NCBI GenBank assembly: GCA_022340545.1
Contig: JAJDNV010000159.1
Span: 21,872-85,871 of the forward strand
Source of the DNA: Acidobacteriota bacterium
GTDB taxonomy: Bacteria > Acidobacteriota > Vicinamibacteria > Fen-336
Length of the DNA stretch: 64,000 nucleotides
Reading direction: 5' to 3'
In this document: positions 6,260 through 44,747 of the stretch, piece after piece
Numbering within the stretch: the first letter of the stretch is position 1
Layout: every line of letters begins with the position of its first letter
Position numbers and translations under genes: made by a program
The notes under the pieces: generated by a model
Databases searched by the model: none
Told to the model about the DNA's origin: nothing
Seen by the model: the letters and a program-made list of their open reading frames with translations, nothing else

Positions 6260-6260
6260 C

Positions 6261-6372: not shown

Positions 6373-6407
6373 CTGTTTGCCGAACCCCCACTCTCCGGCG
6401 TGTTCCG

Positions 6408-23833: not shown

Positions 23834-23947
23834 CCGTCACGCCGCGCATCCTCTGGCCGGGAGAGGGTGAAGCCCGGCCGACACCATGCAGATGAGGGAA
23901 CCGGCGGTGTCGCCGGCCCGTTCTCCGTCTCAGAGCGGAAGACAGGC

Positions 23948-25390
23948 ATGGCCACCGCGGTGTTACCATCCGACGCGATGATCGGGCAGACCTTCAAGCA
24001 CTACGAGGTCGAAGCGGAGCTGGGAAAGGGCGGCATGGGCGTCGTGTACCGCGCCCGCGACACCCAGCTCGGCCGCCCGGTCGCCCTCAAGGTCCTGACC
24101 CCGGAGTTCACCCGGGACGAGGACCGCAAGAAGCGGTTCCTGCAGGAGGCCAGGGCCGCGAGCGCCGTCAACCACCCGGCGATTGCCCCGGTCTACGAGG
24201 TGGGCGAAGGCCCGGAGGGCCTCTTCATCGCGATGGAGCTGGTCGAGGGCCGCACCGTCAAGGCCCTCATCCAGGCCCGCGAGCTGGATCTCCTCGGGGG
24301 CATCGAGGTGGCGCTACAGGTGGCGGGCGGGCTCCAGAAAGCCCACGAGGCGGGCATCGTCCACCGCGACATCAAGCCCGAGAACGTGGTCGTCACCCCC
24401 GACGGGCACGCGAAGATCCTCGACTTCGGCCTGGCCAAGCTCCTCGAGCCCACCGCGCCCGCGACTGCCCGCTCCGCCGACGAGATCTCGCACATGGAGA
24501 CGCTGGCCAAGACGCAGGCCGGCTTCGTGCTGGGCACCCTCCGATACATGAGCCCCGAGCAGGCCCGCGGCCAGGCCATCGACTACCGGAGCGACATCTT
24601 CTCGCTTGGCGTCGTGCTCTACGAGATGGTGACGGGCCAGCTGCCCTTCTCGGGCTCGACTCCGCTGGACACCCTGCACGCCATCGCCTACGAGGAGACT
24701 CGCCCGGTCACCGCGCTGCGACCGAACATCCCTGCGTCCCTCCAGCGCGTCGTCACCCGCTGCCTCCGAAAGCGGGCGGCCGATCGCTATCCCGACGCCC
24801 GCGAGCTGATCACGGACCTGAAGGCGGTGCAGCGCGAGGTGGAGAGCGGGATCTCGAGCAAGGTGCCGCTGGGGGTGAGGCTGCAGGAGCAGTGGACGTC
24901 GCTCCGGCACCGTACGCTGGGCGAGTGGCTCCTGCCGGCGGGTGTGGGCGTAGTCCTTCTCGCGGTCGTGCTCGCGATGCTCTTCGGCCCGGAAACGGAG
25001 GGGCTCCCGGGCAGCCTGATCTTCTTCGGGATCGTCGGGCTCTTCGTGTGGCGCCGCTTCCGCAACCGCCGTATCCGCCTGGCCCGCCGGGCGGTGAAGA
25101 AGATGAGCCGGATGGAGGAGGTCCGCCTGATCGCCCTGGACGGGATGCGCCTCACGGTGCTGGCCGACCGGGCCCAGGCGCGAACCTACGTGCGCGCGAA
25201 CGCGATCGTGGACGCGGTGAATTCGAGCATGTTCTTCGGGGATCCGTTTACGGTGGTGGTCCGCGACGACGTCTCCGACGAAGAGGCCAAGGCGTTGCTG
25301 ACCGGACCGGGCATCCTCTACGTGCGCGAGAACGAGCCCCTCCCTCCCGCGCCCCCCGCCCCGAACACCACCTCGGTCGAGCAGGGCTGA
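23948..25390 (+). CDS. Ser/Thr protein kinase with TM segments and a C-terminal extracytoplasmic domain
   Basis: GKGGMGVVYRA...ALK, HRDIKPEN, DFG, SPEQ Hanks motifs. ATG at 23948. Confidence 0.8.
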   Translation: MATAVLPSDAMIGQTFKHYEVEAELGKGGMGVVYRARDTQLGRPVALKVLTPEFTRDEDRKKRFLQEARAASAVNHPAIAPVYEVGEGPEGLFIAMELVEGRTVKALIQARELDLLGGIEVALQVAGGLQKAHEAGIVHRDIKPENVVVTPDGHAKILDFGLAKLLEPTAPATARSADEISHMETLAKTQAGFVLGTLRYMSPEQARGQAIDYRSDIFSLGVVLYEMVTGQLPFSGSTPLDTLHAIAYEETRPVTALRPNIPASLQRVVTRCLRKRAADRYPDARELITDLKAVQREVESGISSKVPLGVRLQEQWTSLRHRTLGEWLLPAGVGVVLLAVVLAMLFGPETEGLPGSLIFFGIVGLFVWRRFRNRRIRLARRAVKKMSRMEEVRLIALDGMRLTVLADRAQARTYVRANAIVDAVNSSMFFGDPFTVVVRDDVSDEEAKALLTGPGILYVRENEPLPPAPPAPNTTSVEQG

Positions 25391-27167: not shown

Positions 27168-27833
27168 GTGGACGGAGAGGACATCGTCAACGGCCTCCTG
27201 AGGGGCGCCTTCGGCGGCCGCCGGAAGAGATCGCGCGGCGCGAGGCGCGCCTTCGGGAGGCGCGGGTCGCTCGTCAACGCGACGACGCTGCTGGCGGCGG
27301 CGGGCGTCGCCTGGGGCCTCTACGAGACCTGGCAGGGCCAGCGATCCTCCGGGACCCCGACCGGACCGACGCCTCGACCCGGCACGCCGCCCCCTCCCCT
27401 GCCCGGCGCCACCGCCCCGCCTCCCCTGCCCCCCACAGCCGAAGCAGGACGGCTGCCCGAGCCCGTCCTTCGCGTGGTGCGCCTCCTGATCTCCGCCGCG
27501 GGCGCGGACGGGCGAATAGGACCCGCGGAGCGTGAGGCCATCCTGGCCGAGGCCCGCGCCACCGGGGCGGAGGACGCGGTGGCGGCCGAGCTGGAGTCGC
27601 CGCGGCCGCTCCCGGAGATCGTGGGCGGCGTCACCGACCCGAAGCTCAAGCGGGACCTGTACACGCTGGCGTTCGGGATCGTCCGCGCGGACGAGACGGT
27701 CACCGGGGGCGAGCGGATCTACCTGGCCCAGCTCGCGCATCACCTGAAGCTCGAGCCCGACGACGTCGCGCGCCTCGAGTCCGAGGCCGCCGCTCGCATC
27801 GACGCCGAGGCGGCGAAGGCGGACGACGCGTGA
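27168..27833 (+). CDS. TerB-like / DUF533-family protein
   Basis: GTG start after [40 protein letters not shown] is the TerB-like C-terminal domain. Pro-rich linker. Confidence 0.6.
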
Positions 27834-27861
27834 GCTGAGCCTCAAAACGGAGGGAGGGAGC

Positions 27862-28881
27862 ATGTCGTCGACGCCACAGTGGTACATGGCCGTGGGTGGC
27901 CAGCAGGTCGGGCCCGTGTCCGAGGAAGACATCACCAACAACATCAAGAACGGCAGCGTCGACGCCGAGACCCTGGTCTTCATCGCGGGGATGGACGGCT
28001 GGACGCCGCTCAAGGCCGTGCCCAAGTTCGCGTCCCTGCTCGGCCCGATCGCTCCGCCGCCGATGCCTGCCTCGGCCCGGCGCTCGGACATCATCGACTA
28101 CAAGATCAAGGGCGAGGATGTTCAGTTCGTCGAGATCGAGCTCGACCCTGGCGAGGCCTGCGTGGCGGAGGCCGGGGCCATGATGTACATGACCGCCGGC
28201 ATCCAGATGGACACGATCTTCGGCGACGGGAGCGGCCGGCAGAAGCCCGGGATCATGGGTGCGCTGCTCGGCGCGGGCAAGCGCGTCCTGACCGGGGAGA
28301 GCCTCTTCATGACCGTCTTCTCTTCGCACGGTCGCGCGAAGGAGAGGGTGGCCTTCGCCGCGCCCTACCCGGGCCGGATCCTCGCCATGGAGCTTCCCGA
28401 GCTGGGGGGCGAGCTCATCTGCCAGAAGGACTCCTTCCTCTGCGCGGCCAAGGGCGTGGCCATCAGCATCGCCTTCCAGAAAAAGATCGGCGTGGGCCTC
28501 TTCGGCGGAGAGGGCTTCATCATGCAGCGTCTCCTGGGCGATGGGCTCTGCTTCGTCCACGCCGGGGGCATGCTCCACGAGCTGCAGCTCGGGGCGGGCG
28601 AGACGCTCCGGGTGGACACCGGCTGCCTCGTCGCGCTCCAGCCCAGTGTCGGCTATGACGTCCAGTTCGTGGGCGGCATCAAGACGGCCTTCTTCGGCGG
28701 GGAGGGGCTGTTCTTCGCCACCCTCACCGGGCCCGGCCGGGTGTGGCTGCAGTCGCTGCCGCTGAGCCGCATGGCGGACCGGATCTACAAGGCCGCGCCC
28801 CAGACCGGAGGCAGCCGCAAGGGCGAGGGCTCCATCCTCGACGTCGTCGGGGGCCTGGGCAACATGATCGACGGCGACTAA
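27862..28881 (+). CDS. AIM24-family (TIGR00266-like) protein with N-terminal DUF4339/GYF-like domain
   Basis: N-terminus [18 protein letters not shown]. The remainder matches the AIM24 pattern (GESLFMTVF...[22 protein letters not shown]). Confidence 0.7.
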
Positions 28882-28964
28882 TCGTTCCGGGAACGCCAGC
28901 TGAGCCGACGTTCCCGGAACAGTCCGCTAGGGGAGTGCACGCTGGTTCTCTTCTGAGCTTCGAC

Positions 28965-29423
28965 ATGCGACCCGCGCCCACACTCGCCAGCCGATTGATG
29001 TCGGGAGTCCTCCTCGCGCTCGGGATCCTCGCAGGCGGCCCGGTGGCTCGCGCCGACGACGGGCCACCAGCCGGAACAGCTGGGTCTGGTGAGGACACGG
29101 CGGGACCGCCGGCGCCCGCCCCGAAGCGCCCCGTGCTGGACGAGGAGCAGCCCCCCGTCGGCCCCTTCGGGACTACGGGGCTCGACTTCAAGAGCGACGA
29201 CGGAGGCTATCGCCTGCACCTCTGGTTCCGCGCCCAGGTCCGCTACTCATACCCATTCAACAGTGACCCCCGAGGCCCCGACGACTTCGTCGCCGGCGCG
29301 GTCCACTCCCTCGACCTGCAGCGGATCCGGGTCAAGCTCAAGGGGAACGCCTACCGGCCAGGCCATCGCCATGCGGAAACCGCAGGGTCTCGCCTCGGCG
29401 CCGTTGCCGCCAAGGAGCCTTGA
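28965..29423 (+). pseudogene. truncated porin-like gene fragment (signal peptide plus ~130 aa), possible remnant
   Basis: MRPAPTLASRLMSGVLLALGILAGGPVARA signal. HLWFRAQVRYSY...RIRVKLKGNAYRP resembles the N-terminus of phosphate-selective porins. Stops after 152 aa. A +1-frame continuation reads LDDDATWP...ITLTVYLSIA, then a low-GC tract. Confidence 0.35.
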
Positions 29424-29638
29424 CGATGATGCGACCTGGCCGGCTATGACCATGGCGGCGGGTCTGGCGGCGGGAGCTGGTGGGCTCGGTCGTCAGGCGC
29501 CCATCACCCTAACTGTATATTTATCAATTGCTAAGGTTGTTTCTCGCGAGACCGCCCGGGCGTAACAAAGCCCTTGCATCGCCCGAAACGTACGCCTAAA
29601 CTCGACGAAACAGTTCAGACGTTCCGCTTCTCTACGGT

Positions 29639-30178
29639 TTGAGCCGTCGGTGGGTGACGGCGGATAGAGGGAGTGACTTCTTGCCGCGGGTGTTTGCCTA
29701 CGGGAGCCTCATGGGGGACGCGGTTCTGGCGCGGTACCACGCGCGGCCGGCTCGGCTGGCCGGATACCACCGCGCCTTCCTCCACGAGTCGCTGCGACGC
29801 TGGGGTCAACCCGGGTCCCCCTGCCCCATCCTCGGCCTCTCGCCCGGAGGCGAGTGCTGGGGTCTCGTCTTCGACGTGCCCGCGTCCGATCGAGTCCGCG
29901 TCATGCGGGCCCTCGAGAAGCGGGAAGCCGCGAGCGAGCGCCGCCGTGAGACACATACCGTTGAAACGCCGGATGGACCGCTCCCGGCCGTGGTCTGGGT
30001 ATCTCGGAGCGCCAACGGCAACGGCTCTGACGGTTCGAGCCTCGAGGCACGCCTCCGGACGGCCCACGGCGTCGTGGGCACCGGTCCGGAGTACGTTCGG
30101 GGACTCGTGCACGCGATGGAGCTGCACGGCATCCGGGATTCACTGATCGACACCCTGTGGGAGCGGCTGCAAGGCTGA
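29639..30178 (+). CDS. gamma-glutamylcyclotransferase-like (ChaC/AIG2 fold) protein
   Basis: VFAYGSLM motif. The start may instead be the TTG at 29681, after AGAGGGA. Confidence 0.65.
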   Translation: MSRRWVTADRGSDFLPRVFAYGSLMGDAVLARYHARPARLAGYHRAFLHESLRRWGQPGSPCPILGLSPGGECWGLVFDVPASDRVRVMRALEKREAASERRRETHTVETPDGPLPAVVWVSRSANGNGSDGSSLEARLRTAHGVVGTGPEYVRGLVHAMELHGIRDSLIDTLWERLQG

Positions 30179-30185
30179 TTCACCC

Positions 30186-31295
30186 ATGCTCCTCTACATC
30201 ACCGCAGAAGACATCTTCGGCAGCGACAGACCCGAACGCGCCGGCCCCCGCCCCCTGCACCGCATCCCGGAGACGGTGGCCGGCCTCTTCGACCTGGGCC
30301 TGCGTCATCACATCCGCCCGGCGGTGATGGCCTGGCCGGGGGGCGAGGGGTTCGAGCCCGTTCCCGATTGGAAGCTGGACCGCCTGGCCATTCGAGTCGC
30401 GCTCCAGGGCCGGGAGCGGATGGGCGTGGAGCCGGGGGTCCGCGTGGCTCTCTTCGGCCGGCTGGGCTGGCTCTGGCCGGTCGTGGACTTCGCGGCGATG
30501 GGGTTCGGGGCGGTGCCGGTCGGTCTGGAGCACGACCTCTCGGACGACACCCTCGTCGAGGTCGTTGAGCGGGCCGGCCCGCGGGTGCTCTTTGCCACGG
30601 ATCCCGGGAGCGTGGCGCGCGCACTGCGCCTGCGCCAGGAGGGACACCTGGGAAGCGCCACCCTCGTTGGCGAAGGACTGCCCGAGGAGGAGGGCCTGCT
30701 GCCCCTTTCGCGGCTCCTGGAGCTGGGGTCGATCCTCGACACCGCCGAGCGAGCCCAGGCCTTCCGTGCGTTCTCGCGTCAGATCGCACCCGAGAGCGAG
30801 GCGATGTGGCATGCCGGATCGGAGGGCCTGTCCCGCCTGACCCACCGGGAAGCGATGGGCCGGCTCGAAGGGCGGCTGAGAGCCCACCCGGCACAGAAGG
30901 GCGACGTCGCCTTTGTCGATGGACCCCGGGTGACTCTTGGGGTGCGCCTCACCCTGGCCGCCTTCGTTGGGGACGGTCTCACCACGACCGCCCTGGGCCG
31001 GGAGGGGAGAGCAGACGAGGACGTCGCCGTGCTCCGGCCCCACAAGATGGTCCTGTGCGGAGACTGGCTCGAGGCGACCTGCGAGGGCCAGGCCCCCCGG
31101 TGGCCGGCAGGGCTCGACCGCCCACGGGTCCGACGCCGGCTGATGAAGCGCCTCGGCGGCCGTCTGCGCCGGGTCGAGACCGCGTCGGGCATCAGCGAGG
31201 GCACGGTGCGCGCCCTGGACACGGCGGGAGTGACGCACGAGGTGACGGAGACGGGGGCCAGCGAAGCCGTGCACGGAACGGAGACCGTGCACTGA
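30186..31295 (+). CDS. ANL-superfamily (AMP-binding) N-terminal-domain-like protein with a degenerate P-loop and no C-terminal subdomain
   Basis: GVRVALFGRLGWLWPVVDFAAMGFGAVPV...VLFATD resembles the ANL N-terminus. WHAGSEGLSRLTHREAM lies where TSGTTGxPKGVxLTHRN is expected. 7 bp after the GGCT-like gene. Confidence 0.5.
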   Translation: MLLYITAEDIFGSDRPERAGPRPLHRIPETVAGLFDLGLRHHIRPAVMAWPGGEGFEPVPDWKLDRLAIRVALQGRERMGVEPGVRVALFGRLGWLWPVVDFAAMGFGAVPVGLEHDLSDDTLVEVVERAGPRVLFATDPGSVARALRLRQEGHLGSATLVGEGLPEEEGLLPLSRLLELGSILDTAERAQAFRAFSRQIAPESEAMWHAGSEGLSRLTHREAMGRLEGRLRAHPAQKGDVAFVDGPRVTLGVRLTLAAFVGDGLTTTALGREGRADEDVAVLRPHKMVLCGDWLEATCEGQAPRWPAGLDRPRVRRRLMKRLGGRLRRVETASGISEGTVRALDTAGVTHEVTETGASEAVHGTETVH

Positions 31296-31347
31296 TCGTT
31301 CCCGCGGCCGGCCACGCGCCGCTGCGGGCGAGAGGAGGCAGAAGACG

Positions 31348-33306
31348 ATGGAGACGACGCTTCAGCAGATCGGCGATCTCGCCTGGCGGGCCTTCCAGTC
31401 GGTGAACACCCGCGTCCCCGAGGGACGCTCGGTCGAGCCGGACTGGGCGCCGGGACCCCTGCCGAAATCGCACGAGAGGACGCGTCCGCCCCTCGGCTAT
31501 CCTCGCGAGACGGACTCGCTGTGCCCCCAGTGCGTCATCGAGACGCGGAGGAAGCTCCTGAACGGGGAGCGCGATCTCAAGGACCTCGTCGACGGCCACA
31601 TCGGCGAGGTCAAGGCCACGTTCTACGAGAAGGGCAAGGAGCTCTGGGTCACCAAGACCTGCCCCGAGCACGGGACCTTCGACGACATCCGCTCCATCGA
31701 CGTCGAGTTCGACAAGGTCGTGGAGAGCCGCTTCCCCGGGCGCGACTACCGCACCTTCGGGGACGAGAACGTGCACCGCCACGGCACCTCGACCGTGCGG
31801 TACGGCCGCGGCGCGGTCCTGACCGTCGACCTCACCAACCGCTGCAACATGATGTGCAACCCCTGCTTCATGGACGCCAACCAGGTGGGGTACGTGCACG
31901 AGCTGACGCTCGAGGAGATCAAGAAGATCCTCGACGACTCGATCTCCTTCAAGCCGCGGCGGCAGATGGTGGTGCAGTACTCCGGCGGAGAGCCGACGAT
32001 GTCGCCCCACTTCCTCGAGGCCTGCGCCTACGCGAAGAAGGTGGGCTACAAGCTCATCCAGGCCGCGACCAACGGCATCCGCTTCGCCCTCGAGCCCGAG
32101 TTCGCCTTCCAGGCGAAGGAGGCGGGGCTCGACATGGTGTACTTCCAGTTCGACGGGACCACCAACGAGGCCAACTCCCACCGTCACATCACCAACCTCT
32201 TCGACGTCAAGAAGATCGCCATCGACAACATCGCCGCCGCCGGGATCCGCATCACCCCGGTGGTGACCGTCGTCAACGGCGTGAACAACCACATGGTCGG
32301 TCCGATCTTCGACTTCTGCCTCGAGAACCACGACAAGATGGGCGGGCCCGCGTTCCAGCCGGTGTCCTTCACCGGACGTGACGAGGAGATCAGCGACGAG
32401 GAGCGATTGAAGCAGCGGTACACCACCTCGCACCTCGCCCACGACCTGGCGAAGTACTACGACGGCAAGATCGACCCCTACCGGGACTGGTACCCGCTGG
32501 GTTCCTCGACCGCCTTCGCCTCCCTCGCCGACCACCTGAGGGGACCGCAGTCGGACTTCGGACAGCTCAACTGCGGCTGCCACCCGAACTGCGGGGCGGC
32601 GACGATGATGGTGGCCAACGCCGGCACCGGCGAGTGGGCGACGCTGATGTCGTTCTTCAACCTCGACCAGTTCTTCAGGGACCTCGACGTGGTCGTCGAC
32701 TCCGCTCGCGGCAAGACCGCCACCATCGCCCAGATCGGCCTCTCCTTCCTCCGCAACTTCGACCAGAAGAAGGCCCCGAAGGGGATGACCCCGCTCCGGA
32801 TGCTGGAGCTGTTCAACGGGAAGATGGGCGGGACGGTGACCGGCGACGGCGAGGAGAAGAAGGGCGAGTGGCGCCTGACCACGATCCTGAGCATGTGGTT
32901 CCAGGACCTGTGGAACTACGACTTCCGCCGCACGGAGATGTGCGTGATCCCGTACGGCACCCAGGAGGGCGAGATCTCCTTCTGCGCCTACAACACCGGC
33001 GTGGGGTGGCGGAACATCATCGAGGAGATGCGCCAGGTGGCCACGACGAAGGACTGGTTCGCCGAGAAGGGCCGGCACCAGATCTACGCCGGCGACCGGC
33101 CCGTGGAGATGCCCCACGCCCTCAAGCGCAAGCTGCCGGTCGTTTCTGTCGAGGGAGGAAACGGGAACGGAGACGGCCACGAGCAGGCCCGGCCGGTGGG
33201 CGGCAACGGGAACGGCCAGGGTCACGCGAGGGCGGCCGACGGCGCCCCCCAGCCCGCCGGGCCGCACGCCCAGGGCGGCTGCGGCACCGGCTGCGGGGGC
33301 CACTAG
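31348..33306 (+). CDS. radical SAM enzyme with N-terminal rubredoxin-like Cys pairs and additional Cys clusters; possible MJ0619/Tes (GDGT-MAS)-family member; Gly/Asn-rich C-terminal tail
   Basis: CNMMCNPCF (CX3CX2C) followed by GGEPT. N-terminal CPQC...(45 aa)...CPEHG. Extra clusters CGCHPNCG and C..C. Tail GNGNGDGH...GNGNGQGH...GGCGTGCGGH. RBS GAGAGGAGG. Confidence 0.8.
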   Translation: METTLQQIGDLAWRAFQSVNTRVPEGRSVEPDWAPGPLPKSHERTRPPLGYPRETDSLCPQCVIETRRKLLNGERDLKDLVDGHIGEVKATFYEKGKELWVTKTCPEHGTFDDIRSIDVEFDKVVESRFPGRDYRTFGDENVHRHGTSTVRYGRGAVLTVDLTNRCNMMCNPCFMDANQVGYVHELTLEEIKKILDDSISFKPRRQMVVQYSGGEPTMSPHFLEACAYAKKVGYKLIQAATNGIRFALEPEFAFQAKEAGLDMVYFQFDGTTNEANSHRHITNLFDVKKIAIDNIAAAGIRITPVVTVVNGVNNHMVGPIFDFCLENHDKMGGPAFQPVSFTGRDEEISDEERLKQRYTTSHLAHDLAKYYDGKIDPYRDWYPLGSSTAFASLADHLRGPQSDFGQLNCGCHPNCGAATMMVANAGTGEWATLMSFFNLDQFFRDLDVVVDSARGKTATIAQIGLSFLRNFDQKKAPKGMTPLRMLELFNGKMGGTVTGDGEEKKGEWRLTTILSMWFQDLWNYDFRRTEMCVIPYGTQEGEISFCAYNTGVGWRNIIEEMRQVATTKDWFAEKGRHQIYAGDRPVEMPHALKRKLPVVSVEGGNGNGDGHEQARPVGGNGNGQGHARAADGAPQPAGPHAQGGCGTGCGGH

Positions 33307-33362
33307 ACGAAGGACGCCGCGGCTCTTACGGAGTCGCTGACGCCGGCTCAGGACCTCTGAGG

Positions 33363-34304
33363 TCAGATTCTCTCGGCGCGGGCCTTGAGATTCAGCAGCT
33401 GCTTGCGCTGCATGATGAGGTGGGCGGGGCCGAAGAACGCCTTCATCAGGAGGTCCAGCCAGATCGGCCGGACCAGGCCGCGGGTGCGCACGAGGAGCCG
33501 GGTCCGGGCCGGGCCGAGCTCTTCGAGGACGAACACCCAGGTGGCCCGCAGGAAGCGCGACGGCCTCGCCTCGGACCACTCGAGCTGGGCCAGCTTCGTG
33601 TAGTTGAAGTAGGTCCCGAGGACAAAGGTTTCCGGGGCCTCGAGCTCGAGTACCTCGAACCCTTCCGGGTGGCCGGGTCGCGCGGGCAGAACGTCGCCCA
33701 CCTTCGTCGCCTGGAGCTCGGGAACGAGTCGCTCAGCGCTGGGCCGCCCTCCGTTGTCCAGCCGGTCCCAGCTGTACCAGCCCGCCCGCTCGCAGCCCAT
33801 CTGGACGAGCCACGGCCAGACGGCTTCGCGTGAGGCCTCGATCGTGATGCCGTGCGTGGCCGGGTTCCGGGCCTCGGGGATCTGTCCGTCACCCGGCAGG
33901 TCCCGCTTGCTTTCCTGCCGCGTGGCGTGCCAACGCCACGCCGGACCCGCCCCCATCACCCAGACCGCGGCGCCCCAGGCCGAGAGGAAGATCAGGGTGA
34001 ACGGGATCCACGTGCCGATCGGGCTCTGGAACATGGCCCAGCTGCGCTCGATGAACGGCGCGACGAGCGCGGCGTCCATCACGACCACGACGCCGATGAA
34101 GACGGCAGCCACCCGCAGCGGCGTCGTCACCGCGAGGTACCGAGCATAGACGTACGCGAGGACCCCCGCGATGACCGGGGCCGCGGCCGCGTGCACGATG
34201 AGCGCGGTCTCCATGGGCACCAGGCTCCGGGCCACGGCGATGGTCGCACCGCACAGGCCCCAGCCAAGGAGTGCGAATCCGAAGAGAGCCAGCGTCCGGG
34301 CCAC
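33363..34304 (-). CDS. membrane-anchored SRPBCC (START/polyketide-cyclase-like) domain protein
   Basis: 4 N-terminal TM helices, then an SRPBCC-like C-terminal region. Confidence 0.65.
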   Translation of the reverse strand: MARTLALFGFALLGWGLCGATIAVARSLVPMETALIVHAAAAPVIAGVLAYVYARYLAVTTPLRVAAVFIGVVVVMDAALVAPFIERSWAMFQSPIGTWIPFTLIFLSAWGAAVWVMGAGPAWRWHATRQESKRDLPGDGQIPEARNPATHGITIEASREAVWPWLVQMGCERAGWYSWDRLDNGGRPSAERLVPELQATKVGDVLPARPGHPEGFEVLELEAPETFVLGTYFNYTKLAQLEWSEARPSRFLRATWVFVLEELGPARTRLLVRTRGLVRPIWLDLLMKAFFGPAHLIMQRKQLLNLKARAERI

Positions 34305-34342: not shown

Positions 34343-35314
34343 TCAGGGCCGAGCAACGGGCCGGTAGTCCGGATACCGAGCGTCGGCCTTCGAGAAGGTC
34401 ACCTGGCGCGCCTCGCCGTCGGCGAGGTGGTACCGGTAGATCTCCCAGCTGCCGGTCATTGTGGAGGCGAAGGCGATCTCCGAGCCGTCGGGCGAGTAGA
34501 CCGGGTCGTAGTTCAGGGCCGGCCAGTCCACGAGAACCGCCTCCTCTCCCGTCGCGAGATCGTGCTCGACGATCGCGCTCACGCTCTTGTCCTCCCGGGG
34601 GCGGCGGTGCACGTAGACGACCTTCGTCCCGTCCGGGCTGAACCGCGGCTCACAGCCACCGACCTCCGAGATCTGACGGGTCTCGCCGCTGGCCACGTCG
34701 ACGACGTAGATCTGGTGTCCCCTCTTCCAGTTGGAGGAAAAGACGATGCGCGTCCCGTCCGGGCTCCAGTGCGGGTTGCCCATGACAGTCCGTTCACCGT
34801 GGCGCACGAGGGGCCGCAGCTCGCTCGTCTTCTGGTCGAGGAGCCAGAGGGACTCGGCGCCCTCCCGGTTCGAGAGGAAGGCGAGGAAGCGGCCGTCCGG
34901 GGATTCGTCGACCTGCCACTCCCGATGGTCGTTGACGAGCACGCGCTCGGGCTCCCCGCCGTCGGCCGGGACCTTCCAGACCTGCCAGCTTCCCGAGCGC
35001 CGGGACGTGAACAGGACCGAACGGCCGTCCCGGGTCCACCGCGGCAACCCATCGTCGGCAGGATGGCTCGTCAGCTGGATCGACGGTCCGCCCTCGACCG
35101 GGACGATGTAGAGGTCCCGAGCGTCCTCCGGTCCCTGTCCGTAGACCAAGGCGCCCTCCGGAATGGCCCGACCGTCAGCACCCGGAGCCCCCGAGCTGGA
35201 GCCGTGGCATGCCACCAGGATCAGCGTGGCCAGGGCGCAGGCGGCGCGTCCTTCGACTCCCGTCCGCCCGGGCGGCCGGCGTCTTCTTCTCGCAGGTCGT
35301 CGCACGACGATCAC
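34343..35314 (-). CDS. TolB-like PD40 beta-propeller lipoprotein
   Basis: Lipobox LILVAC. Repeated SPDG..IAF/SPDGT.IVF PD40 motifs. Confidence 0.7.
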   Translation of the reverse strand: MIVVRRPARRRRRPPGRTGVEGRAACALATLILVACHGSSSGAPGADGRAIPEGALVYGQGPEDARDLYIVPVEGGPSIQLTSHPADDGLPRWTRDGRSVLFTSRRSGSWQVWKVPADGGEPERVLVNDHREWQVDESPDGRFLAFLSNREGAESLWLLDQKTSELRPLVRHGERTVMGNPHWSPDGTRIVFSSNWKRGHQIYVVDVASGETRQISEVGGCEPRFSPDGTKVVYVHRRPREDKSVSAIVEHDLATGEEAVLVDWPALNYDPVYSPDGSEIAFASTMTGSWEIYRYHLADGEARQVTFSKADARYPDYRPVARP

Positions 35315-37014: not shown

Positions 37015-37210
37015 GGACTCTCCCGGGGCGGAGACCCGCACATCCCCCTACCATGGTGCAACGCCGGGAGGCCACTCGCCATTCCCGGCGGGACGACGAC
37101 CCGTGGGGGCGTAGGTGGTGTATGCTGCGGCATCGTTCCAGGTCAGACGTCCGGCGGCCCCCGCGGAGCAGGGGTTTTTCCTCGCCTGCGGGGCCGGGGA
37201 GGCGACGAAG

Positions 37211-39928
37211 ATGAGCCTGAAGTCCGGCCAGCGCCTCGGGCCCTATGAGATCGAGTCCCCACTCGGCGCGGGAGGCATGGGCGAGGTGTACCGCGCCCAG
37301 GACACACGCCTGGGTCGCTCCGTCGCGATCAAGGTGCTCCCGGCCCACCTGGCCGAGCACCCGCAGCGCCGCGAGCGCTTCGAGCGGGAGGCCAAGGCGG
37401 TCGCCGCCCTCAGCCATCCCCACATCTGTGCGCTCTACGACGTGGGCGAGGAGGACGGCGTCTCCTTCCTCGTCATGGAGCACCTCGAGGGCGAGAGCCT
37501 CGCCGAGCGGCTGTCCCGGGGAGCGCTGCGCCTCGACCAGCTCCTGAAGATCGGAGCCGAGGTGGCGGGCGCCCTCGACCGGGCCCATCGGGCCGGCATC
37601 GCTCACCGCGACCTCAAGCCCGGCAACGTCATGCTCACGAAATCCGGGGCCAAGCTGCTGGATTTTGGCCTCGCCAAGAGCGGGCTGGCCGAGCCGGAGC
37701 GGACGGAGTCGAGCGCGCCGACCGAGGCCGCTCCGGGGGTGGCTCCCCAGGATACGAGCGCCCCGACCGAGGCCAAGCCGCCCCTCACCGAGGCGGGAGC
37801 CGTGCTCGGCACCTTCCAGTACATGGCCCCCGAGCAGCTCGAGGGAGAGGAGGCGGACGCACGAGCCGACATCTGGGCCCTCGGCTGCCTGCTCTACGAG
37901 ATGGCCACAGGGAGCCCTCCCTTTGCCGGGAAGAGCCAGGCCAGCCTCATCAGCAGCATCATGCGGGACGTGCCGGTGCCGGTCGGGGAGCGGCAACCCC
38001 TCACCCCGTCCTCGCTCGAGCACGTGATCGCCCGGTGCCTGGAGAAGGACCGCGAGGACCGCTGGCAGTCGGCCCACGACGTCGCGGAGGAGCTGACCTG
38101 GATCCAGCGCGCGGGCGGGCGGGACGCGACACCGTCGGTGGAAGCCGGGAAGACGCCGCGCCGACCGGGGACGAGCCGGATGGCCCTCGCGGCCGCGGCG
38201 GCGGCCGTCGCCGGGGCGGTGCTTGGCTACGCGCTGGGGTGGGGCCGCACGGAGACGACCGGCGCGGCGAGCTGGAGCGCGCAGCAGCTGACTTTCCAGA
38301 AGGGCGTCGAGAATCACCCCGCGCTGTCGCCGGACGGCCGTCAGGTCGCTTACGTGAGCGAGGCCTCCGGCAACGCCGACATCTACCTCCAGCGCGTCGA
38401 CGGGCGCAACGCCATCAACCTGACGAAGGACTCCCCGGCCGCAGACACCGAGCCCGCTTTCTCGCCGGACGGGAGCCAGATCGTGTTCCGCTCCGAGAGG
38501 GGCGGCGGCGGGATCTTCGTGATGGGAGCCACCGGGGAGTCGGTTCGGCGCATCGGCGACCTGGGCTACAACCCCAGCTGGTCCCCCGACGGCCGCCGGG
38601 TGGTGGTCTCTACGGAGAGAGTCGCCGACCCCCTGAGCCGCCAGGCCACCGCCGCCGAGCTATGGACGGTCGACCTCACCTCCGGGGAGACCCGCCGGAT
38701 CTACGCCGGCGACTCCGTCCAGCCGGCGTGGTCACCCGACGGTCGCTGGATCGCCTTCTGGCGGGTGGACGGCAACTCCGGCCAGCGCGACCTCGCCACC
38801 ATCGACGCGGAGGGCACGGGCGAGTCGGCCGCGGTCACGACCGATGTGCCCGTCGACTGGAATCCAGTCTGGTCGCCCGACGGGCGTCACATCTACTTCG
38901 TGAGCGACCGGGCCGGCACCATGAACGTGTGGCGGGTGGCGATCGATCCGGAGACAGGCGGCGCGGACAGCGAGCCGGTGATGGTGGGAACGCCGGCGGA
39001 GGACGTGGCCTGGCTCTCGGTGGCGAGAGAAGGGGGGAACCTCGCGTACGTCTCACGCTCGGCCCTGCACTACCTCCACTCGTTCCCGCTCGACCCGGAG
39101 CGGCTCCGGCCCGCCGGCGAGGCACGGACAGTCCTCGCCGGGGCCCTGCCGATCCGGTACACCCACCCGTCGCCCGACGGGGCCTCGATCGCGCTGACGA
39201 CCGCGGGAAGCCGCGAAGACCTCTACGTTCTGCAGAGCGACGGGGGCGAGTTCCGGCAGCTCACCGACGACCCCTTCCGGGATCGCGGCCCCCAGTGGTC
39301 GCCCGACGGCTCCGAGATCGCCTTCTATTCCAACCGCTCGGGGACGTATCAGGTCTGGAGCATCCGGCCGGACGGCAGCGGTCTGCGGCAGCTGACGGAC
39401 GTCGCCGATGGGGCGTGGTTCCCGTACTGGTCGCCGGATGGGAAGCGGATTGCCTTCCCCACCGGGAGGGGCACCTGTCTCGTCACCGTCGGTGACGCTC
39501 CGGTGTCGACGGCGGAGTGCCTGCCCGACCTGTCGGCGGACCAGTGGTACGAGGTGCGCGACTGGTCGCACGACGGCCGCTGGCTGGTCGGAAACGCGTC
39601 GCTGCGTGCGGGCGCCGTCCGCCCGGACCTCCTGCTCTGGTCCTTCGACGCCGAGGAGTACCAGCCGATCGAGCATCCCGGGTTCGTGGCACGATGGCTC
39701 CCGGACTCGCGGAATCTCGTCGTGATCGGAGACGACGGGCGCCTCACCCTGGTGGACCACACGACGGGCACCGCCCGCGACGTCGGACGCATCGAGAGCA
39801 GCGGCACGGTCGACCGGGAGCAGATGGGCCTGTCCCGCGACGGCCGCACCGTGCTCGCCCAGGCCAAGTCTCTCGAAGCCAACATCTGGGTTCTCTCGCC
39901 GCCAGAAGATTCCGAGTCCGACGACTAG
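37211..39928 (+). CDS. Ser/Thr protein kinase fused to a C-terminal TolB-like PD40 beta-propeller
   Basis: Hanks motifs (GAGGMGEVYRA, HRDLKPGN, DFGLAK, APEQ), a TM segment, multiple SPDG...PD40 repeats. ATG at 37211 after GGGGAGG. The C-terminal ...SESDD overlaps a hairpin repeat motif. Confidence 0.8.
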   Translation: MSLKSGQRLGPYEIESPLGAGGMGEVYRAQDTRLGRSVAIKVLPAHLAEHPQRRERFEREAKAVAALSHPHICALYDVGEEDGVSFLVMEHLEGESLAERLSRGALRLDQLLKIGAEVAGALDRAHRAGIAHRDLKPGNVMLTKSGAKLLDFGLAKSGLAEPERTESSAPTEAAPGVAPQDTSAPTEAKPPLTEAGAVLGTFQYMAPEQLEGEEADARADIWALGCLLYEMATGSPPFAGKSQASLISSIMRDVPVPVGERQPLTPSSLEHVIARCLEKDREDRWQSAHDVAEELTWIQRAGGRDATPSVEAGKTPRRPGTSRMALAAAAAAVAGAVLGYALGWGRTETTGAASWSAQQLTFQKGVENHPALSPDGRQVAYVSEASGNADIYLQRVDGRNAINLTKDSPAADTEPAFSPDGSQIVFRSERGGGGIFVMGATGESVRRIGDLGYNPSWSPDGRRVVVSTERVADPLSRQATAAELWTVDLTSGETRRIYAGDSVQPAWSPDGRWIAFWRVDGNSGQRDLATIDAEGTGESAAVTTDVPVDWNPVWSPDGRHIYFVSDRAGTMNVWRVAIDPETGGADSEPVMVGTPAEDVAWLSVAREGGNLAYVSRSALHYLHSFPLDPERLRPAGEARTVLAGALPIRYTHPSPDGASIALTTAGSREDLYVLQSDGGEFRQLTDDPFRDRGPQWSPDGSEIAFYSNRSGTYQVWSIRPDGSGLRQLTDVADGAWFPYWSPDGKRIAFPTGRGTCLVTVGDAPVSTAECLPDLSADQWYEVRDWSHDGRWLVGNASLRAGAVRPDLLLWSFDAEEYQPIEHPGFVARWLPDSRNLVVIGDDGRLTLVDHTTGTARDVGRIESSGTVDREQMGLSRDGRTVLAQAKSLEANIWVLSPPEDSESDD

Positions 39929-43590: not shown

Positions 43591-44709
43591 TCAGACCATC
43601 GCCTCCCGCCGGACCTTCCCGCGGTGGGCCTGGTAGAACTCCACCAGGCGCGGGAGGTAATCGGCGAGGCGCGGACACTCGATCCCGAGCGCTCCCAGGT
43701 CCTCGCTCGCCTGCGCGGTGTCGTGACGCACAGGGTCGTCGAAGTAGTCGAGCGCCTCGCCGGGCATGCCGAAGAATCGCTGCACCGGCTTCGGCGAGAA
43801 GAAGGCGCGGGCCACCTTCAGGGGTACCGGGACCTGGACGAACTTCTTGTCGATGGCCTTCGCGAACATCTCGGCCAGCTCACCGGGAGCGTGGGGCTCC
43901 GGATCGCACAGGTGGTAGGTCTTGCCCGCGCTGATCGGGCTCGCGGAGAGGGACGCGAGTGCCTCGACCACGAAATCGATGGGCACGATATTGACGGTGC
44001 CGAAGCCCAGGCCGATCCGGAGGAACACTCCCGGTGACGGGAGCTTCTCCATCACCCGCAGCACGAAATAGGGCCCGTCGAACTTGCCGGTCTCGCCCGT
44101 CCTCGAGTCACCGACCACGATCCCCGGCCGGTAGATGGTGGAGGGGACGCCCGAGCGGGCGACCTCGACCTCGGCCTGGAACTTCGTCTCTTCGTAGTGG
44201 TTCTTGAAACCCTGCCCCACGTCCAGGTCCGTCTCGCGAAACTTCCCGCGTGTGTTGCCCGAGACGTATGCGGTGGAGACGTAGTGCAGTCGCTCGAACC
44301 GCGCGGCCTTGTCGAGGAACTCGAGGACGTTCTTCGTCCCCTCGACGTTGATCCGCCGTCCGACGTCGCGCCTGACCGCGAGGTCGTAGACGGCGGCGAG
44401 GTGATACGCCTCGGCGAGCGAGCGGCGCAGCTCGCGGGCCGCCTTCGCCGGGATCCCGAGACCCTGGGCCGTGATGTCGCCGGTGATCAGCTCGATCCGG
44501 CCGCGGGTGTGGGGGTGAGAAGATCCGATTGCCTCCACCGCTTCCCGGGCGGCGTCCATGAACTTCTCCTGAACGAGGCAGACGGCGCGCGTGTCGGCCT
44601 TGAGCTCGAGGATCCGGGGAAGGAGGCGTGCGCCGATGAACCCGGGGAAGCCGGTGAAGAGGAAGGAGCGCGAGGCCTCTCCTCCTCCAGCAAGGTCGTT
44701 CTTCGTCAT
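43591..44709 (-). CDS. SDR-family NAD(P)-binding protein of the thioester/fatty-acyl reductase (NAD_binding_4) type
   Basis: FLFTGFPGFIGARL Rossmann motif and YxxxK-type region. Start at the ATG at 44709 (MTKNDLAGG). Confidence 0.7.
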   Translation of the reverse strand: MTKNDLAGGGEASRSFLFTGFPGFIGARLLPRILELKADTRAVCLVQEKFMDAAREAVEAIGSSHPHTRGRIELITGDITAQGLGIPAKAARELRRSLAEAYHLAAVYDLAVRRDVGRRINVEGTKNVLEFLDKAARFERLHYVSTAYVSGNTRGKFRETDLDVGQGFKNHYEETKFQAEVEVARSGVPSTIYRPGIVVGDSRTGETGKFDGPYFVLRVMEKLPSPGVFLRIGLGFGTVNIVPIDFVVEALASLSASPISAGKTYHLCDPEPHAPGELAEMFAKAIDKKFVQVPVPLKVARAFFSPKPVQRFFGMPGEALDYFDDPVRHDTAQASEDLGALGIECPRLADYLPRLVEFYQAHRGKVRREAMV

Positions 44710-44747
44710 GGGCCTGCCTCTCTTTCGCCTGTCCGGCACGCGCGTGG

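What the first reader, a model, noticed from the sequence alone, without database searches (positions are those of the whole stretch)
31348..33306. Radical SAM enzyme with rubredoxin-like N-terminus and extra Cys clusters: possible bacterial Tes/GDGT-MAS (MJ0619-family) tetraether lipid synthase homologue
The 652-aa protein has a CX3CX2C radical SAM core (CNMMCNPCF...GGEPT) preceded by paired Cys motifs (CPQC ... CPEHG). It also carries further Cys-rich segments (CGCHPNCG, CVIPYG...CAYN) and a Gly/Asn-rich tail ending in GGCGTGCGGH. From the literature, the archaeal tetraether synthase (MJ0619/Tes) combines a radical SAM domain, auxiliary Fe-S clusters and a rubredoxin-like mononuclear iron site. 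Bacterial homologues are candidate brGDGT (membrane-spanning lipid) synthases in Acidobacteria-like taxa. The genomic context looks consistent: high-GC soil-type bacterium, with Mla lipid transport, a KAS and a fatty-acyl-reductase-type SDR elsewhere in the window. I cannot verify the family assignment without a search. The protein could instead be another rSAM maturase.
Basis: inference. Interest (0 to 1): 0.7.

Follow-up and report, generated by a model that had tools for sequence, protein, structure and literature searches.

The report
Bacterial Tes-like lipid enzyme, one cluster short
This soil-bacterium gene is a relative of the archaeal enzyme that makes membrane-spanning lipids, but it belongs to a large uncharacterised bacterial branch that lacks one of that enzyme's four metal centres and usually sits beside a conserved partner gene, making it a plausible, untested candidate for making the bacterial lipids used as climate proxies.

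Summary
The ORF (31348-33306, +, 652 aa) and all its Cys motifs are as described. It is a homologue of archaeal tetraether synthase Tes/GDGT-MAS: E=1.3e-54 to PDB 7TOL, predicted fold TM 0.82 to 7TOM, and the NCBIfam Tes model is its best hit. It is not a canonical Tes. It scores 292 bits against a 450 cut-off, is ~31% identical to archaeal Tes, and has no Cys or His ligand at the four [4Fe-4S]N positions. It keeps the rubredoxin-like site (with a 22-aa insert), the radical-SAM cluster, the catalytic C-terminal cluster (C415/C532/C546, M516) and Y536. The same architecture ("type II") appears in all 81 genome copies examined. At least 573 species genomes encode a relative (Acidobacteriota, Gemmatimonadota, Myxococcota, Latescibacterota and others). 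The family has its own conserved N- and C-terminal extensions and a near-invariant HRHG-S motif in place of the lost cluster loop. In three phyla (40 of 81 loci) a 369-aa degenerate acyl-CoA-ligase-like protein is encoded directly upstream. The most likely function is radical tail-to-tail C-C coupling of lipid chains (iso-diabolic-acid/brGDGT-type lipids), inferred only. No bacterial Tes homologue has been tested directly. The distant Mla, KAS and reductase genes add little.

The parts
31348..33306 (+). Type-II Tes-like radical SAM gene (652 aa plus stop)
   Evidence: ORF; GC3 0.95; 7TOL E=1.3e-54; NCBIfam Tes best hit at 292 bits, cut-off 450; fold TM 0.82 to 7TOM.
31330..31338 (+). Shine-Dalgarno GAGAGGAGG, 9 nt before the ATG
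   Evidence: Read directly from the sequence.
31348..31521 (+). Family-specific N-terminal extension (aa 1-58), absent from archaeal Tes; starts with an amphipathic helix (aa 4-21)
   Evidence: Absent in archaeal Tes in A1. W13, F16, Q17, N20, W33, A34, K40, S41, P47, L49, G50, P52, R53 are each conserved in 76-80 of 81 sequences. Hydrophobic moment muH 0.55, reached by 0.2% of shuffles.
31522..31671 (+). Rubredoxin-like mononuclear-iron site C59, C62, C105, H108, with a 22-aa insert (43-residue spacer against 21 in MJ0619)
   Evidence: Aligns to MJ0619 C9/C12/C33/H36, invariant in A1. The spacer is 43 residues in the complete type-II genome copies (44 in L029), against 21-28 in canonical Tes. 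Pfam Zn_ribbon_HMPTM.
31762..31818 (+). Former [4Fe-4S]N loop (aa 139-157). All four ligands are lost and replaced by the near-invariant motif D-x-x-[VIL]-H-R-H-G-[TS]-S-x-[IV]-[KR]-Y-G-R-G-A-V
   Evidence: MJ0619 C73/C77/C80/H83 align to query N141/H145/S148/R151. No Cys occurs at these positions in any of 81 sequences. H145, G146, S148, G153, R154, G155 are 81/81. AF2 confidence here is below 50.
31831..32316 (+). Radical SAM core (aa 162-323) with CX3CX2C (C166, C170, C173; 31843-31866) and GGEPT
   Evidence: Pfam PF04055, 2.9e-18. The Cys are invariant and align to MJ0619 C98/C102/C105.
32572..32994 (+). C-terminal auxiliary-cluster domain. Ligands C415, C532, C546 and labile M516; Y536 (= Tyr459); family-specific extra Cys C409 and C411 (C-x-C-H-x-x-C)
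   Evidence: Align to MJ0619 C338/C455/C470/M439. All are 81/81, as is Y536. C411 is 81/81 and C409 is 78/81.
32995..33144 (+). Conserved start of the C-terminal extension (aa 550-599; W570, G575-R-H577, I-Y-A-G), absent from archaeal Tes
   Evidence: W570, G575, R576, H577, A581 in 81/81.
33145..33303 (+). Low-complexity Gly/Asn/His tail with two GNGNGxGH repeats, ending CGTGCGGH
   Evidence: Relatives in Acidobacteriota and Gemmatimonadota end in CGxGCGC[HS] or shorter GxGC[GS]H. AF2 confidence is below 30.
30186..31295 (+). Conserved partner gene: 369-aa degenerate ANL (acyl-CoA-ligase-type) N-terminal domain, 52 nt upstream on the same strand
   Evidence: Directly upstream and co-oriented in 40 of 81 loci across Acidobacteriota, Gemmatimonadota and Myxococcota. 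Weak Pfam AMP-binding hit. Profile hits to ANL enzymes down to E=1e-9, over positions 62-178 only. AF2 fold matches CAR, FadD5, FadD13 and LC-FACS N-domains, TMq about 0.65. No A3 P-loop, A5 or A7 motif and no lid domain.
29639..30178 (+). ChaC/gamma-glutamylcyclotransferase-like gene, 7 nt upstream of the partner; probably the first gene of the operon
   Evidence: Pfam ChaC 5.6e-17. Found upstream of the partner in 25 loci, in Acidobacteriota and Gemmatimonadota only.

Best explanation
The gene encodes a 'type II' Tes-like radical SAM enzyme. It belongs to a large bacterial sister family of archaeal tetraether synthase (Tes/GDGT-MAS).

Shown here:
- It has the GDGT-MAS fold.
- It keeps three of the four metal sites: the rubredoxin-like Fe, the SAM-cleaving [4Fe-4S] cluster, and the C-terminal [4Fe-4S] cluster with its labile Met and conserved Tyr.
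- It lacks the surface N-terminal [4Fe-4S] cluster.
- It carries family-specific N- and C-terminal extensions.
- It is encoded next to a degenerate acyl-CoA-ligase-like partner.

Inferred by homology with MJ0619:
1. The radical-SAM cluster cleaves SAM to the 5'-deoxyadenosyl radical.
2. That radical abstracts a hydrogen from the terminal methyl carbon of a lipid chain held in a hydrophobic tunnel.
3. The carbon radical is parked as an S-C bond on the C-terminal cluster.
4. A second SAM activates a second chain, and the two ends are joined by a Csp3-Csp3 bond.

In these bacteria the likely substrates are iso-branched (iso-C15-type) acyl or alkyl chains of glycerolipids. The product would be iso-diabolic-acid-type membrane-spanning lipids, the skeleton of brGDGTs.

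More speculative: the enzyme is peripheral rather than membrane-embedded (amphipathic N-terminal helix, no transmembrane segment). The partner may bind or present the acyl chain, or stabilise the enzyme, without adenylating anything.
For: Homology:
- PDB 7TOL E=1.3e-54 over aa 87-561.
- NCBIfam Tes is the best model, 5.7e-87, covering 2-481 of 486 profile positions.
- AF2 model (pTM 0.78) matches 7TOM at E=1.6e-33 and TM 0.82, far above any other rSAM.

Catalytic apparatus kept:
- RS Cys C166/C170/C173.
- C-cluster ligands C415/C532/C546 plus M516 (= Met439) and Y536 (= Tyr459), invariant in 81 of 81 family members.
- The missing cluster is the surface [4Fe-4S]N, whose role those authors call unclear.

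Lipid link:
- GDGT-MAS also binds ester-linked bacterial phosphatidic acid.
- The conserved partner's nearest folds are fatty-acyl and carboxylic-acid activating enzymes.
- Start/stop overlaps of -4, -8 or -14 nt in several loci suggest co-translation of partner and enzyme.

Need for such an enzyme:
- Acidobacteria of subdivisions 1, 3, 4 and 6 make iso-diabolic acid but lack Mss (PMC13159169).
- This family occurs in Vicinamibacteria (subdivision 6, by established taxonomy) and Pyrinomonadaceae (subdivision 4, by established taxonomy).
- Zeng et al. proposed bacterial Tes homologues for brGDGT synthesis (PMC8941075).

Strong purifying selection and core-genome location indicate a functional, constitutive enzyme.
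Against: - No bacterial Tes homologue of any type has been tested genetically or biochemically.
- The culture correlations (S. usitatus brGDGTs, K. versatilis tetraesters) concern homologues whose reported identity (40-42%) fits the canonical type I, not this type.
- The protein fails the Tes equivalog cut-off and lacks a defining cofactor.
- It has a new invariant HRHG-S motif and extra Cys next to the catalytic cluster, which could mean altered chemistry.
- Sahonero-Canavesi et al. found Tes homologues in only 3 of 14 iso-diabolic-acid-producing acidobacterial genomes, under stringent criteria.
- The family is common in phyla (Gemmatimonadota, Myxococcota, Latescibacterota) for which I know of no report of membrane-spanning lipids.
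- No ether-lipid or other lipid-biosynthesis gene is consistently adjacent.
- The ChaC-like neighbour does not suggest lipid metabolism.
- The hosts appear to be largely aerobic taxa, yet the enzyme should be oxygen-sensitive.
Confidence: 0.5

Rival explanations
1. A lipid-tail-modifying radical SAM enzyme with the Tes fold whose product is not an intermolecular membrane-spanning lipid. Possibilities include intramolecular macrocyclisation, a cross-link, or another terminal-carbon modification of branched-chain lipids or other hydrophobic molecules.
For: - MJ0619 itself makes both macrocyclic archaeol and GDGT from one active site.
- Type II has extra conserved Cys (C409/C411) beside the catalytic cluster and a new invariant HRHG-S loop, so its chemistry or specificity could differ.
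- The family is abundant in phyla with no reported membrane-spanning lipids (the absence of reports rests on my own knowledge).
Against: All residues tied to the coupling mechanism are conserved. No positive evidence points to any alternative product.
Confidence: 0.2
2. A non-lipid function: the enzyme acts on a small molecule or peptide in a pathway with the ChaC-like and ANL-like neighbours, possibly on its own or a partner's Cys-rich tail.
For: - The operon ChaC-like / ANL-like / rSAM is conserved in Acidobacteriota and Gemmatimonadota.
- ChaC and GGCT enzymes act on gamma-glutamyl compounds (established knowledge).
- The flexible Gly-rich tail ending in Cys/His co-occurs with the partner (33 of 40 loci against 8 of 41).
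- The second-best NCBIfam model is TrsS, a non-lipid rSAM family.
Against: - The ANL-like partner lacks every adenylation motif, so it cannot activate a carboxylate.
- ChaC is absent from the Myxococcota loci, and both neighbours are absent from half of the family.
- The whole-fold match to a lipid enzyme includes its C-terminal lipid-pocket domain.
- The tail is missing in many family members.
Confidence: 0.15
3. A class D radical SAM methylase, the original annotation of MJ0619 as 7,8-dihydro-6-hydroxymethylpterin dimethyltransferase, which some JGI records still use for this family.
For: Some database names for relatives and the name of the Pfam zinc-ribbon domain.
Against: Lloyd et al. could not reproduce the methylase activity, and the structure shows a narrow hydrophobic tunnel unsuited to a pterin. 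These bacteria are not methanogens and do not make methanopterin by that route (established knowledge).
Confidence: 0.03

Closest known systems
Archaeal tetraether synthase Tes / GDGT-MAS (MJ0619, PDB 7TOL/7TOM; MA_1486)
   Same: - Same overall fold (TM 0.82).
- Rubredoxin-like CX2C...CX2H iron site.
- CX3CX2C radical-SAM cluster.
- C-terminal [4Fe-4S] ligands, plus the labile Met and the conserved Tyr.
- No transmembrane segment.
   Different: - About 31% identity, and below the NCBIfam equivalog cut-off (292 against 450 bits).
- All four [4Fe-4S]N ligands are absent and replaced by a different invariant motif.
- 22-aa insert in the rubredoxin domain.
- About 58-aa N-terminal and about 100-aa C-terminal extensions.
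- Extra conserved Cys pair C409/C411.
- A conserved ANL-like partner gene.
- Bacterial hosts whose lipids are fatty-acid based.
Canonical-type (type I) bacterial Tes homologues. By inference from the identities reported by Zeng et al. 2022, these include those of Ca. Koribacter versatilis and Ca. Solibacter usitatus
   Same: Bacterial, in the same superfamily, and proposed for iso-diabolic-acid and brGDGT synthesis.
   Different: Type I representatives keep all four metal sites, have a 21-28-residue rubredoxin spacer and short termini, and are 35-47% identical to Methanosarcinales Tes. Type II is 29-34% identical. I could not retrieve the Koribacter or Solibacter sequences, so their assignment to type I is inferred.
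Type III Tes-like proteins, for example Terriglobus roseus DSM 18391 WP_014786616.1
   Same: 40% identical to the query over its full length. Same long rubredoxin spacer, same N-terminal extension, and no [4Fe-4S]N.
   Different: Type III has also lost the three C-terminal cluster Cys (Ala/Ser/Ser), so it cannot use the Tes coupling mechanism as described. The T. roseus copy lies in a conjugative or integrative element.
Mss, the membrane-spanning lipid synthase of Thermotoga and Thermoanaerobacter (Sahonero-Canavesi et al. 2022)
   Same: A radical SAM enzyme shown to couple fatty-acid tails into diabolic or iso-diabolic acids. It is the functional analogue of what is proposed here.
   Different: Described as only remotely related to Tes, found in anaerobes, and absent from Acidobacteria. 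Not compared here, because no sequence was available.
ANL adenylate-forming enzymes (FadD-type acyl-CoA synthetases, CAR A-domains), for the partner protein
   Same: The partner has the fold of the large N-terminal domain (TMq about 0.65), with weak sequence similarity in the first subdomain.
   Different: It has no P-loop (A3), no A5 or A7 motif and no C-terminal lid domain, so it is a pseudoenzyme-like remnant.

Membership tests
Tes / GDGT-MAS (NCBIfam NF045702; PDB 7TOL) | Radical SAM core with CX3CX2C and a SAM-binding GGE motif | tested here: met
   C166/C170/C173 and GGEPT; Pfam PF04055 2.9e-18.
Tes / GDGT-MAS (NCBIfam NF045702; PDB 7TOL) | Rubredoxin-like mononuclear Fe site CX2C...CX2H (C9, C12, C33, H36) | tested here: met
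   C59/C62/C105/H108 are invariant, but the spacer is 43 residues instead of 21.
Tes / GDGT-MAS (NCBIfam NF045702; PDB 7TOL) | N-terminal auxiliary [4Fe-4S]N with ligands C73, C77, C80 and His (H83) | tested here: not met
   The aligned residues are N141/H145/S148/R151. No Cys occurs at these positions in any of 81 family members, while all 7 archaeal Tes and 19 of 21 other canonical-type representatives in the alignment have CCCH.
Tes / GDGT-MAS (NCBIfam NF045702; PDB 7TOL) | C-terminal [4Fe-4S]C with three Cys plus labile Met439; conserved Tyr459 | tested here: met
   C415/C532/C546, M516 and Y536, each in 81 of 81.
Tes / GDGT-MAS (NCBIfam NF045702; PDB 7TOL) | Overall four-domain fold of GDGT-MAS | tested here: met
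   Foldseek hit to 7TOM, E=1.6e-33, TM 0.82 on the target. The N-cluster loop is modelled with low confidence.
Tes / GDGT-MAS (NCBIfam NF045702; PDB 7TOL) | Score at or above the curated equivalog cut-off (450 bits) | tested here: not met
   292.4 bits.
Tes / GDGT-MAS (NCBIfam NF045702; PDB 7TOL) | Catalyses tail-to-tail Csp3-Csp3 coupling of lipid chains; host makes membrane-spanning lipids | not testable with these tools
   Needs expression or knockout plus lipid analysis. The source organism is an uncultured Acidobacteriota (Vicinamibacteria-like) lineage.
TrsS radical SAM (seleno)protein (NF045646) | Score at or above the cut-off of 490 bits over the full model | tested here: not met
   199 bits, covering only model positions 13-316 of 441.
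SPASM/twitch peptide maturases and heme-type rSAM enzymes (NirJ, AhbC/D, PqqE, MftC and others) | Family-level score; SPASM domain | tested here: not met
   At most 77 bits against cut-offs of 265-650, over the rSAM core only. No SPASM Pfam hit.
B12-binding radical SAM (GrsA/GrsB type) | N-terminal cobalamin-binding domain | tested here: not met
   No B12-binding domain among the Pfam hits at E<=0.1.
Mss (bacterial membrane-spanning lipid synthase) | Sequence similarity to Tmari_0825 / WP_129545148.1 | not tested
   The sequences were not obtainable with the tools. The literature calls Mss only remotely related to Tes.
ANL adenylate-forming enzymes (partner protein, 30186-31295) | P-loop A3 motif, A5 and A7 motifs, and the C-terminal lid domain with its catalytic Lys | tested here: not met
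   None of the motifs is present. The protein is 369 aa with no lid domain. Only the fold of the N-domain is kept.

The most novel reading that the evidence does not exclude
Type II Tes-like enzymes, together with their ANL-like pseudoenzyme partner, are the missing membrane-spanning-lipid (iso-diabolic acid / brGDGT skeleton) synthase of aerobic soil bacteria such as Vicinamibacteria and Gemmatimonadota. On this reading, loss of the surface-exposed [4Fe-4S]N cluster and gain of the new HRHG-S loop, terminal extensions and Cys/His tail re-engineer the archaeal enzyme for electron supply and stability in oxygen-exposed cells. That would make this family, rather than canonical Tes or Mss, a main genetic marker for brGDGT producers in soils.
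Probability: 0.3. Interest if true: 0.85.

Novelty: new variant of a known kind. Interest (0 to 1): 0.55.

Why it matters
brGDGTs are among the most widely used continental palaeotemperature and pH proxies, yet their producers and biosynthetic enzymes are still poorly constrained. Surveys currently count 'Tes homologues' in bacterial genomes as one class.

This analysis shows that such hits fall into at least three cofactor architectures. Type I has four metal sites. Type II, this gene, has three. Type III has lost the catalytic cluster as well. Only types I and II keep the apparatus for the known coupling chemistry.

Type II is very abundant in soil metagenomes and occurs in at least 573 species genomes across many phyla. 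It offers a concrete, testable candidate, with a defined partner protein, for membrane-spanning lipid synthesis in the taxa that dominate neutral and alkaline soils.

For enzymology, it is a natural experiment on what the enigmatic [4Fe-4S]N cluster of Tes is for.

Tried and rejected
- **Context as a lipid cluster:** rejected. The immediate and wider neighbours are housekeeping or unrelated genes. The epimerase-type SDR at 54063-55046 sits beside a fucokinase/pyrophosphorylase, so it is sugar metabolism. The NAD_binding_4 reductase, KAS and MlaD genes are 6.7-26 kb away.
- **Conserved neighbours in subclades without the partner:** in Latescibacterota these are tig, clpP, clpX, engB and serA, which are uninformative.
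- **C-terminal Cys motif as an obligatory replacement for the lost cluster's 3Cys+1His set:** rejected as a general rule. Latescibacterota, Bacteroidota, Pyrinomonadaceae and other members lack any C-terminal Cys, the query itself has only two Cys there, and P0245 has the motif without an adjacent partner.
- **Sigma-70 promoter and intrinsic terminator scan of 28800-33600:** nothing found.
- **Cultured carriers with known lipids:** two cluster look-ups returned only MAG or unnamed sequences for type II.
- **Supplementary table of Sahonero-Canavesi et al.** (which acidobacterial genomes have Tes hits): not held.
- **Literature on Vicinamibacteria or Gemmatimonadota and brGDGTs:** nothing useful.
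- **Structure prediction of the partner from the cross-phylum alignment A2:** It was redone with a shallower admissible alignment.
- **Model coordinates:** not exposed, so I could not check whether the new N- and C-terminal elements pack onto the former N-cluster site, or analyse the lipid tunnel.
- **PDB sequence search with the partner alone:** only chance-level Cas2 hits.
Full report
**1. The observation.** It has an extreme third-position GC of 0.95 in a window of uniform ~70% GC. A strong Shine-Dalgarno (GAGAGGAGG) ends 9 nt before the ATG. All quoted motifs are present: CPQC, CPEHG, CNMMCNPCF, GGEPT, CGCHPNCG, CVIPYG...CAYN and the terminal GGCGTGCGGH. The identical protein is encoded on seven independent metagenome contigs.

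**2. Family.** Pfam finds Radical_SAM (aa 162-323) and the Zn_ribbon_HMPTM domain that marks the MJ0619 family. Among solved structures, MJ0619/GDGT-MAS (7TOL) matches at E=1.3e-54 over aa 87-561. Everything else (MoaA, PqqE, SkfB and so on) scores E>0.004 on the rSAM core only. In NCBIfam the Tes equivalog model is the best hit (292 bits, covering 2-481 of 486 positions) but is well under its 450-bit cut-off. TrsS is second (199 against 490), and SPASM or heme-type rSAM families score at most 77 bits. An AlphaFold2 model (pTM 0.78) hits 7TOM/7TOL at E~1e-33 and TM 0.82 on the target. The next hit, MoaA, reaches TM 0.53. The protein is a true Tes-superfamily member, not a peptide maturase or a B12-rSAM.

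**3. Metal sites.** Lloyd et al. 2022 (PMC9433317) define four sites in MJ0619:
- rubredoxin-like Fe: C9-X2-C12-X20-C33-X2-H36
- [4Fe-4S]N: C73, C77, C80 and His
- the radical-SAM cluster
- [4Fe-4S]C with labile Met439, where the S-C intermediate of the coupling reaction forms

They add that Met439 and Tyr459 are fully conserved, and that the roles of the other cofactors are unclear.

I aligned the query, seven relatives and seven archaeal Tes including full-length MJ0619, with this result:

| MJ0619 site | Query residues | Status |
|---|---|---|
| Rubredoxin-like Fe | C59/C62/C105/H108 | invariant, with a 22-residue insert between the two knuckles |
| Radical-SAM cluster | C166/C170/C173 | invariant |
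| [4Fe-4S]C | C415/C532/C546, M516, Y536 | invariant |
| [4Fe-4S]N (C73/C77/C80/H83) | N141/H145/S148/R151 | ligand set lost |

**4. A defined family.** The protein-cluster search saturated at 8,000 relatives, mostly from soil metagenomes. The exhaustive representative search found 392 clusters (at 50% identity) with E<=1e-30. The best 80 come from Acidobacteriota (Vicinamibacteria, Pyrinomonadaceae), Gemmatimonadota, Myxococcota, Latescibacterota, Calditrichota, KSB1, Bacteroidota, Ignavibacteriaceae and Planctomycetota. The window's nearest relatives (89-91%) are Acidobacteriota MAGs.

Scoring all 81 genome copies plus 34 representatives gives three architectures:

| Type | Metal sites kept | Rubredoxin spacer | Members |
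|---|---|---|---|
| I | CCCH / CCCH / CCC / CMCC (all four) | 21-28 | all archaeal Tes and some bacteria (one cluster is from Phycisphaerae) |
| II | rubredoxin, RS and C cluster; no Cys at any N-cluster position | 43 (44 in one locus) | all 81 genome copies; one, cut by a contig end, lacks the first two rubredoxin Cys |
| III | rubredoxin and RS only | long | for example P0249 = Terriglobus roseus WP_014786616.1 |

The type III protein is 40% identical to the query over its full length, but its C-cluster Cys are replaced by Ala/Ser/Ser.

In type II the former N-cluster loop is not decaying. It is a near-invariant new motif, D139-x-x-[VIL]-H143-R-H145-G-[TS]-S148-x-[IV]-[KR]-Y-G-R-G-A-V, with several positions 81/81. 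C411 (81/81) and C409 (78/81) add a C-x-C-H-x-x-C signature next to ligand C415. The ~58-aa N-terminal extension and the first ~50 residues of the C-terminal extension (W570, G-R-H, I-Y-A-G) are also highly conserved. The N-terminal helix is amphipathic (muH 0.55, reached by 0.2% of shuffles) and there is no transmembrane segment. That fits a peripheral membrane enzyme.

**5. Context.** I clustered all ORFs from the 81 loci. One neighbour stands out. The 369-aa ORF at 30186-31295 lies directly upstream on the same strand in 40 of 81 loci. Counting loci with at least 1.2 kb of upstream sequence and leaving out the window itself:

| Group | Loci with adjacent partner |
|---|---|
| Acidobacteriota (including Vicinamibacteria) | 17/24 |
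| Gemmatimonadota | 15/18 |
| Myxococcota / "Deltaproteobacteria" | 7/8 |
| Latescibacterota, Bacteroidota, Pyrinomonadaceae and the rest | 0 |

In several loci the two genes overlap by 4-14 nt. The partner is a remote ANL-superfamily relative:
- a weak Pfam AMP-binding hit;
- profile hits to acyl-CoA synthetases, CAR and NRPS A-domains down to E=1e-9, over profile positions 62-178 only;
- an AF2 fold (pTM 0.78) that matches CAR A-domains, M. tuberculosis FadD5/FadD13 N-domains and Thermus LC-FACS at TMq ~0.65;
- no P-loop, no A5 or A7 motif and no lid domain.

It is therefore a pseudoenzyme-like remnant of a fatty-acid-activating fold.

A ChaC-like gene (29639-30178) precedes the partner in 25 loci, in Acidobacteriota and Gemmatimonadota only. 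The C-terminal Cys/His tail (CGxGCGC[HS], GxGC[GS]H, GAH[VI]TxC[GS]) co-occurs with partner adjacency: 33 of 40 loci against 8 of 41, Fisher p=1e-8, not corrected for phylogeny. The link is not absolute.

**6. Mechanism.** The SAM-cleaving cluster, the C-terminal cluster with its labile Met, the conserved Tyr and the overall fold are all retained under strong selection. The most economical reading is therefore the Tes reaction: two SAM-dependent hydrogen abstractions from terminal methyl carbons, an S-C intermediate on the C-terminal cluster, and Csp3-Csp3 bond formation.

In bacteria the natural substrates would be iso-branched chains, whose termini are chemically identical to phytanyl termini, as Zeng et al. 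argued. The products would be iso-diabolic-acid-type membrane-spanning lipids. GDGT-MAS binds ester-linked bacterial phospholipid, so ester substrates are plausible. Acidobacteria make iso-diabolic acid yet lack Mss, so some such enzyme is needed.

All of this is inference. Reviews and surveys up to 2025-26 state that bacterial Tes homologues are untested.

The only culture correlations (S. usitatus; K. versatilis; Chen et al. 2025 as cited in PMC13023045) concern homologues reported at 40-42% identity to Methanosarcina Tes. That fits type I (35-47%) rather than type II (29-34%). The E. aggregans homologue (32%, 4e-61) fits type II or III. I could not retrieve those sequences, so these assignments are inferred.

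I put about 0.5 on tail-to-tail lipid coupling, 0.2 on a different lipid-tail modification, 0.15 on a non-lipid role linked to the ChaC-like and ANL-like neighbours, and very little on the obsolete pterin-methylase annotation.

**7. Novelty and verdict.** That bacteria, including Acidobacteria, encode Tes homologues that may make brGDGTs is already in the literature (Zeng 2022; Halamka 2022; Lloyd 2022). I did not find the following in the papers I could search:
- the split of bacterial 'Tes homologues' into distinct cofactor architectures;
- the systematic loss of [4Fe-4S]N and its replacement by a new invariant motif;
- the family-specific extensions;
- the conserved ANL-like partner.

I classify the gene as a new variant of a known kind, of moderate interest (0.55). 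It gives a sharper, directly testable candidate for an old question, namely who makes membrane-spanning lipids in soils. It also offers a natural dissection of the Tes cofactors. Function remains unproven.

Noticed in passing
L088/L089 (Terriglobus roseus-type contigs), gene at 6001-7875: The type III Tes-like gene of Terriglobus roseus DSM 18391 (WP_014786616.1) lacks the catalytic C-cluster Cys. It is flanked by a TrwC relaxase, two phage-type integrases and a TraG/TrwB coupling protein, so it sits in an integrative or conjugative element. It is unlikely to be the core iso-diabolic-acid synthase of subdivision-1 Acidobacteria.
   Followed up: partly
window 30186-31295 (+): A 369-aa protein with the fold of an ANL (acyl-CoA ligase) N-terminal domain, but with no adenylation motifs and no lid domain. 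Its own conserved motifs are R-x-H-x-R, PDW[RK]xDR and LDT[PA]ERA. The family is consistently about 365 aa and is annotated 'hypothetical' in databases.
   Followed up: yes
window 29639-30178 (+): A ChaC/gamma-glutamylcyclotransferase-like gene 7 nt upstream of the partner gene. It is conserved in this position in 25 loci of Acidobacteriota and Gemmatimonadota but not Myxococcota. Any role in connection with the rSAM enzyme is unexplained.
   Followed up: partly
window 33145-33303 (+), aa 600-652: The tail contains two GNGNGxGH repeats before CGTGCGGH (18 Gly, 4 His and 2 Cys in 53 residues), resembling metal-binding tails. The query has Gly where most relatives have the third Cys (CGxGCGCH).
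   Followed up: partly
L011+L023 (contig CAVPGH010000003.1); L058+L059 (OZ244937.1): Some genomes carry two type II copies. In the acidobacterial case one copy has the adjacent partner and the other does not. The two Latescibacterota copies share the same length and C-terminal sequence.
   Followed up: no
L087, gene at 6001-7806 (P0245): A divergent representative (43% identity). It lacks the N-cluster ligands and ends in CGSGCGCH, but has the short archaeal-type rubredoxin spacer and no adjacent partner. Its neighbours are PdxS/PdxT and an 843-aa protein with no Pfam hit. It may be an intermediate form between types I and II.
   Followed up: partly
window 33363-34304 (-): A 313-aa predicted membrane protein, convergent with the Tes-like gene, with no Pfam or NCBIfam match. 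It is present in the identical-gene contigs (L001, L002, L004) but is replaced by other genes in the relative at 89% identity (L005).
   Followed up: partly
window 43591-44946 (-): An NAD_binding_4 ('male sterility', fatty-acyl-CoA or thioester reductase type) protein of about 450 aa next to ferrochelatase. It could bear on fatty alcohol or ether-lipid formation, but it is 10 kb from the Tes-like gene and I did not test for linkage.
   Followed up: no
window 23834-25390 (+) and 37115-39928 (+): Two Ser/Thr protein kinases, the second fused to a PD40/WD40-like beta-propeller. There is also a stand-alone PD40 propeller protein at 34343-35314 (-) and an AIM24+GYF domain protein at 27748-28881 (+).
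   Followed up: no
L042, L046, L052-L066 (Latescibacterota loci): In Latescibacterota the type II gene lies immediately upstream of tig-clpP-clpX-engB and near serA, a core housekeeping neighbourhood conserved in 10-12 loci.
   Followed up: yes
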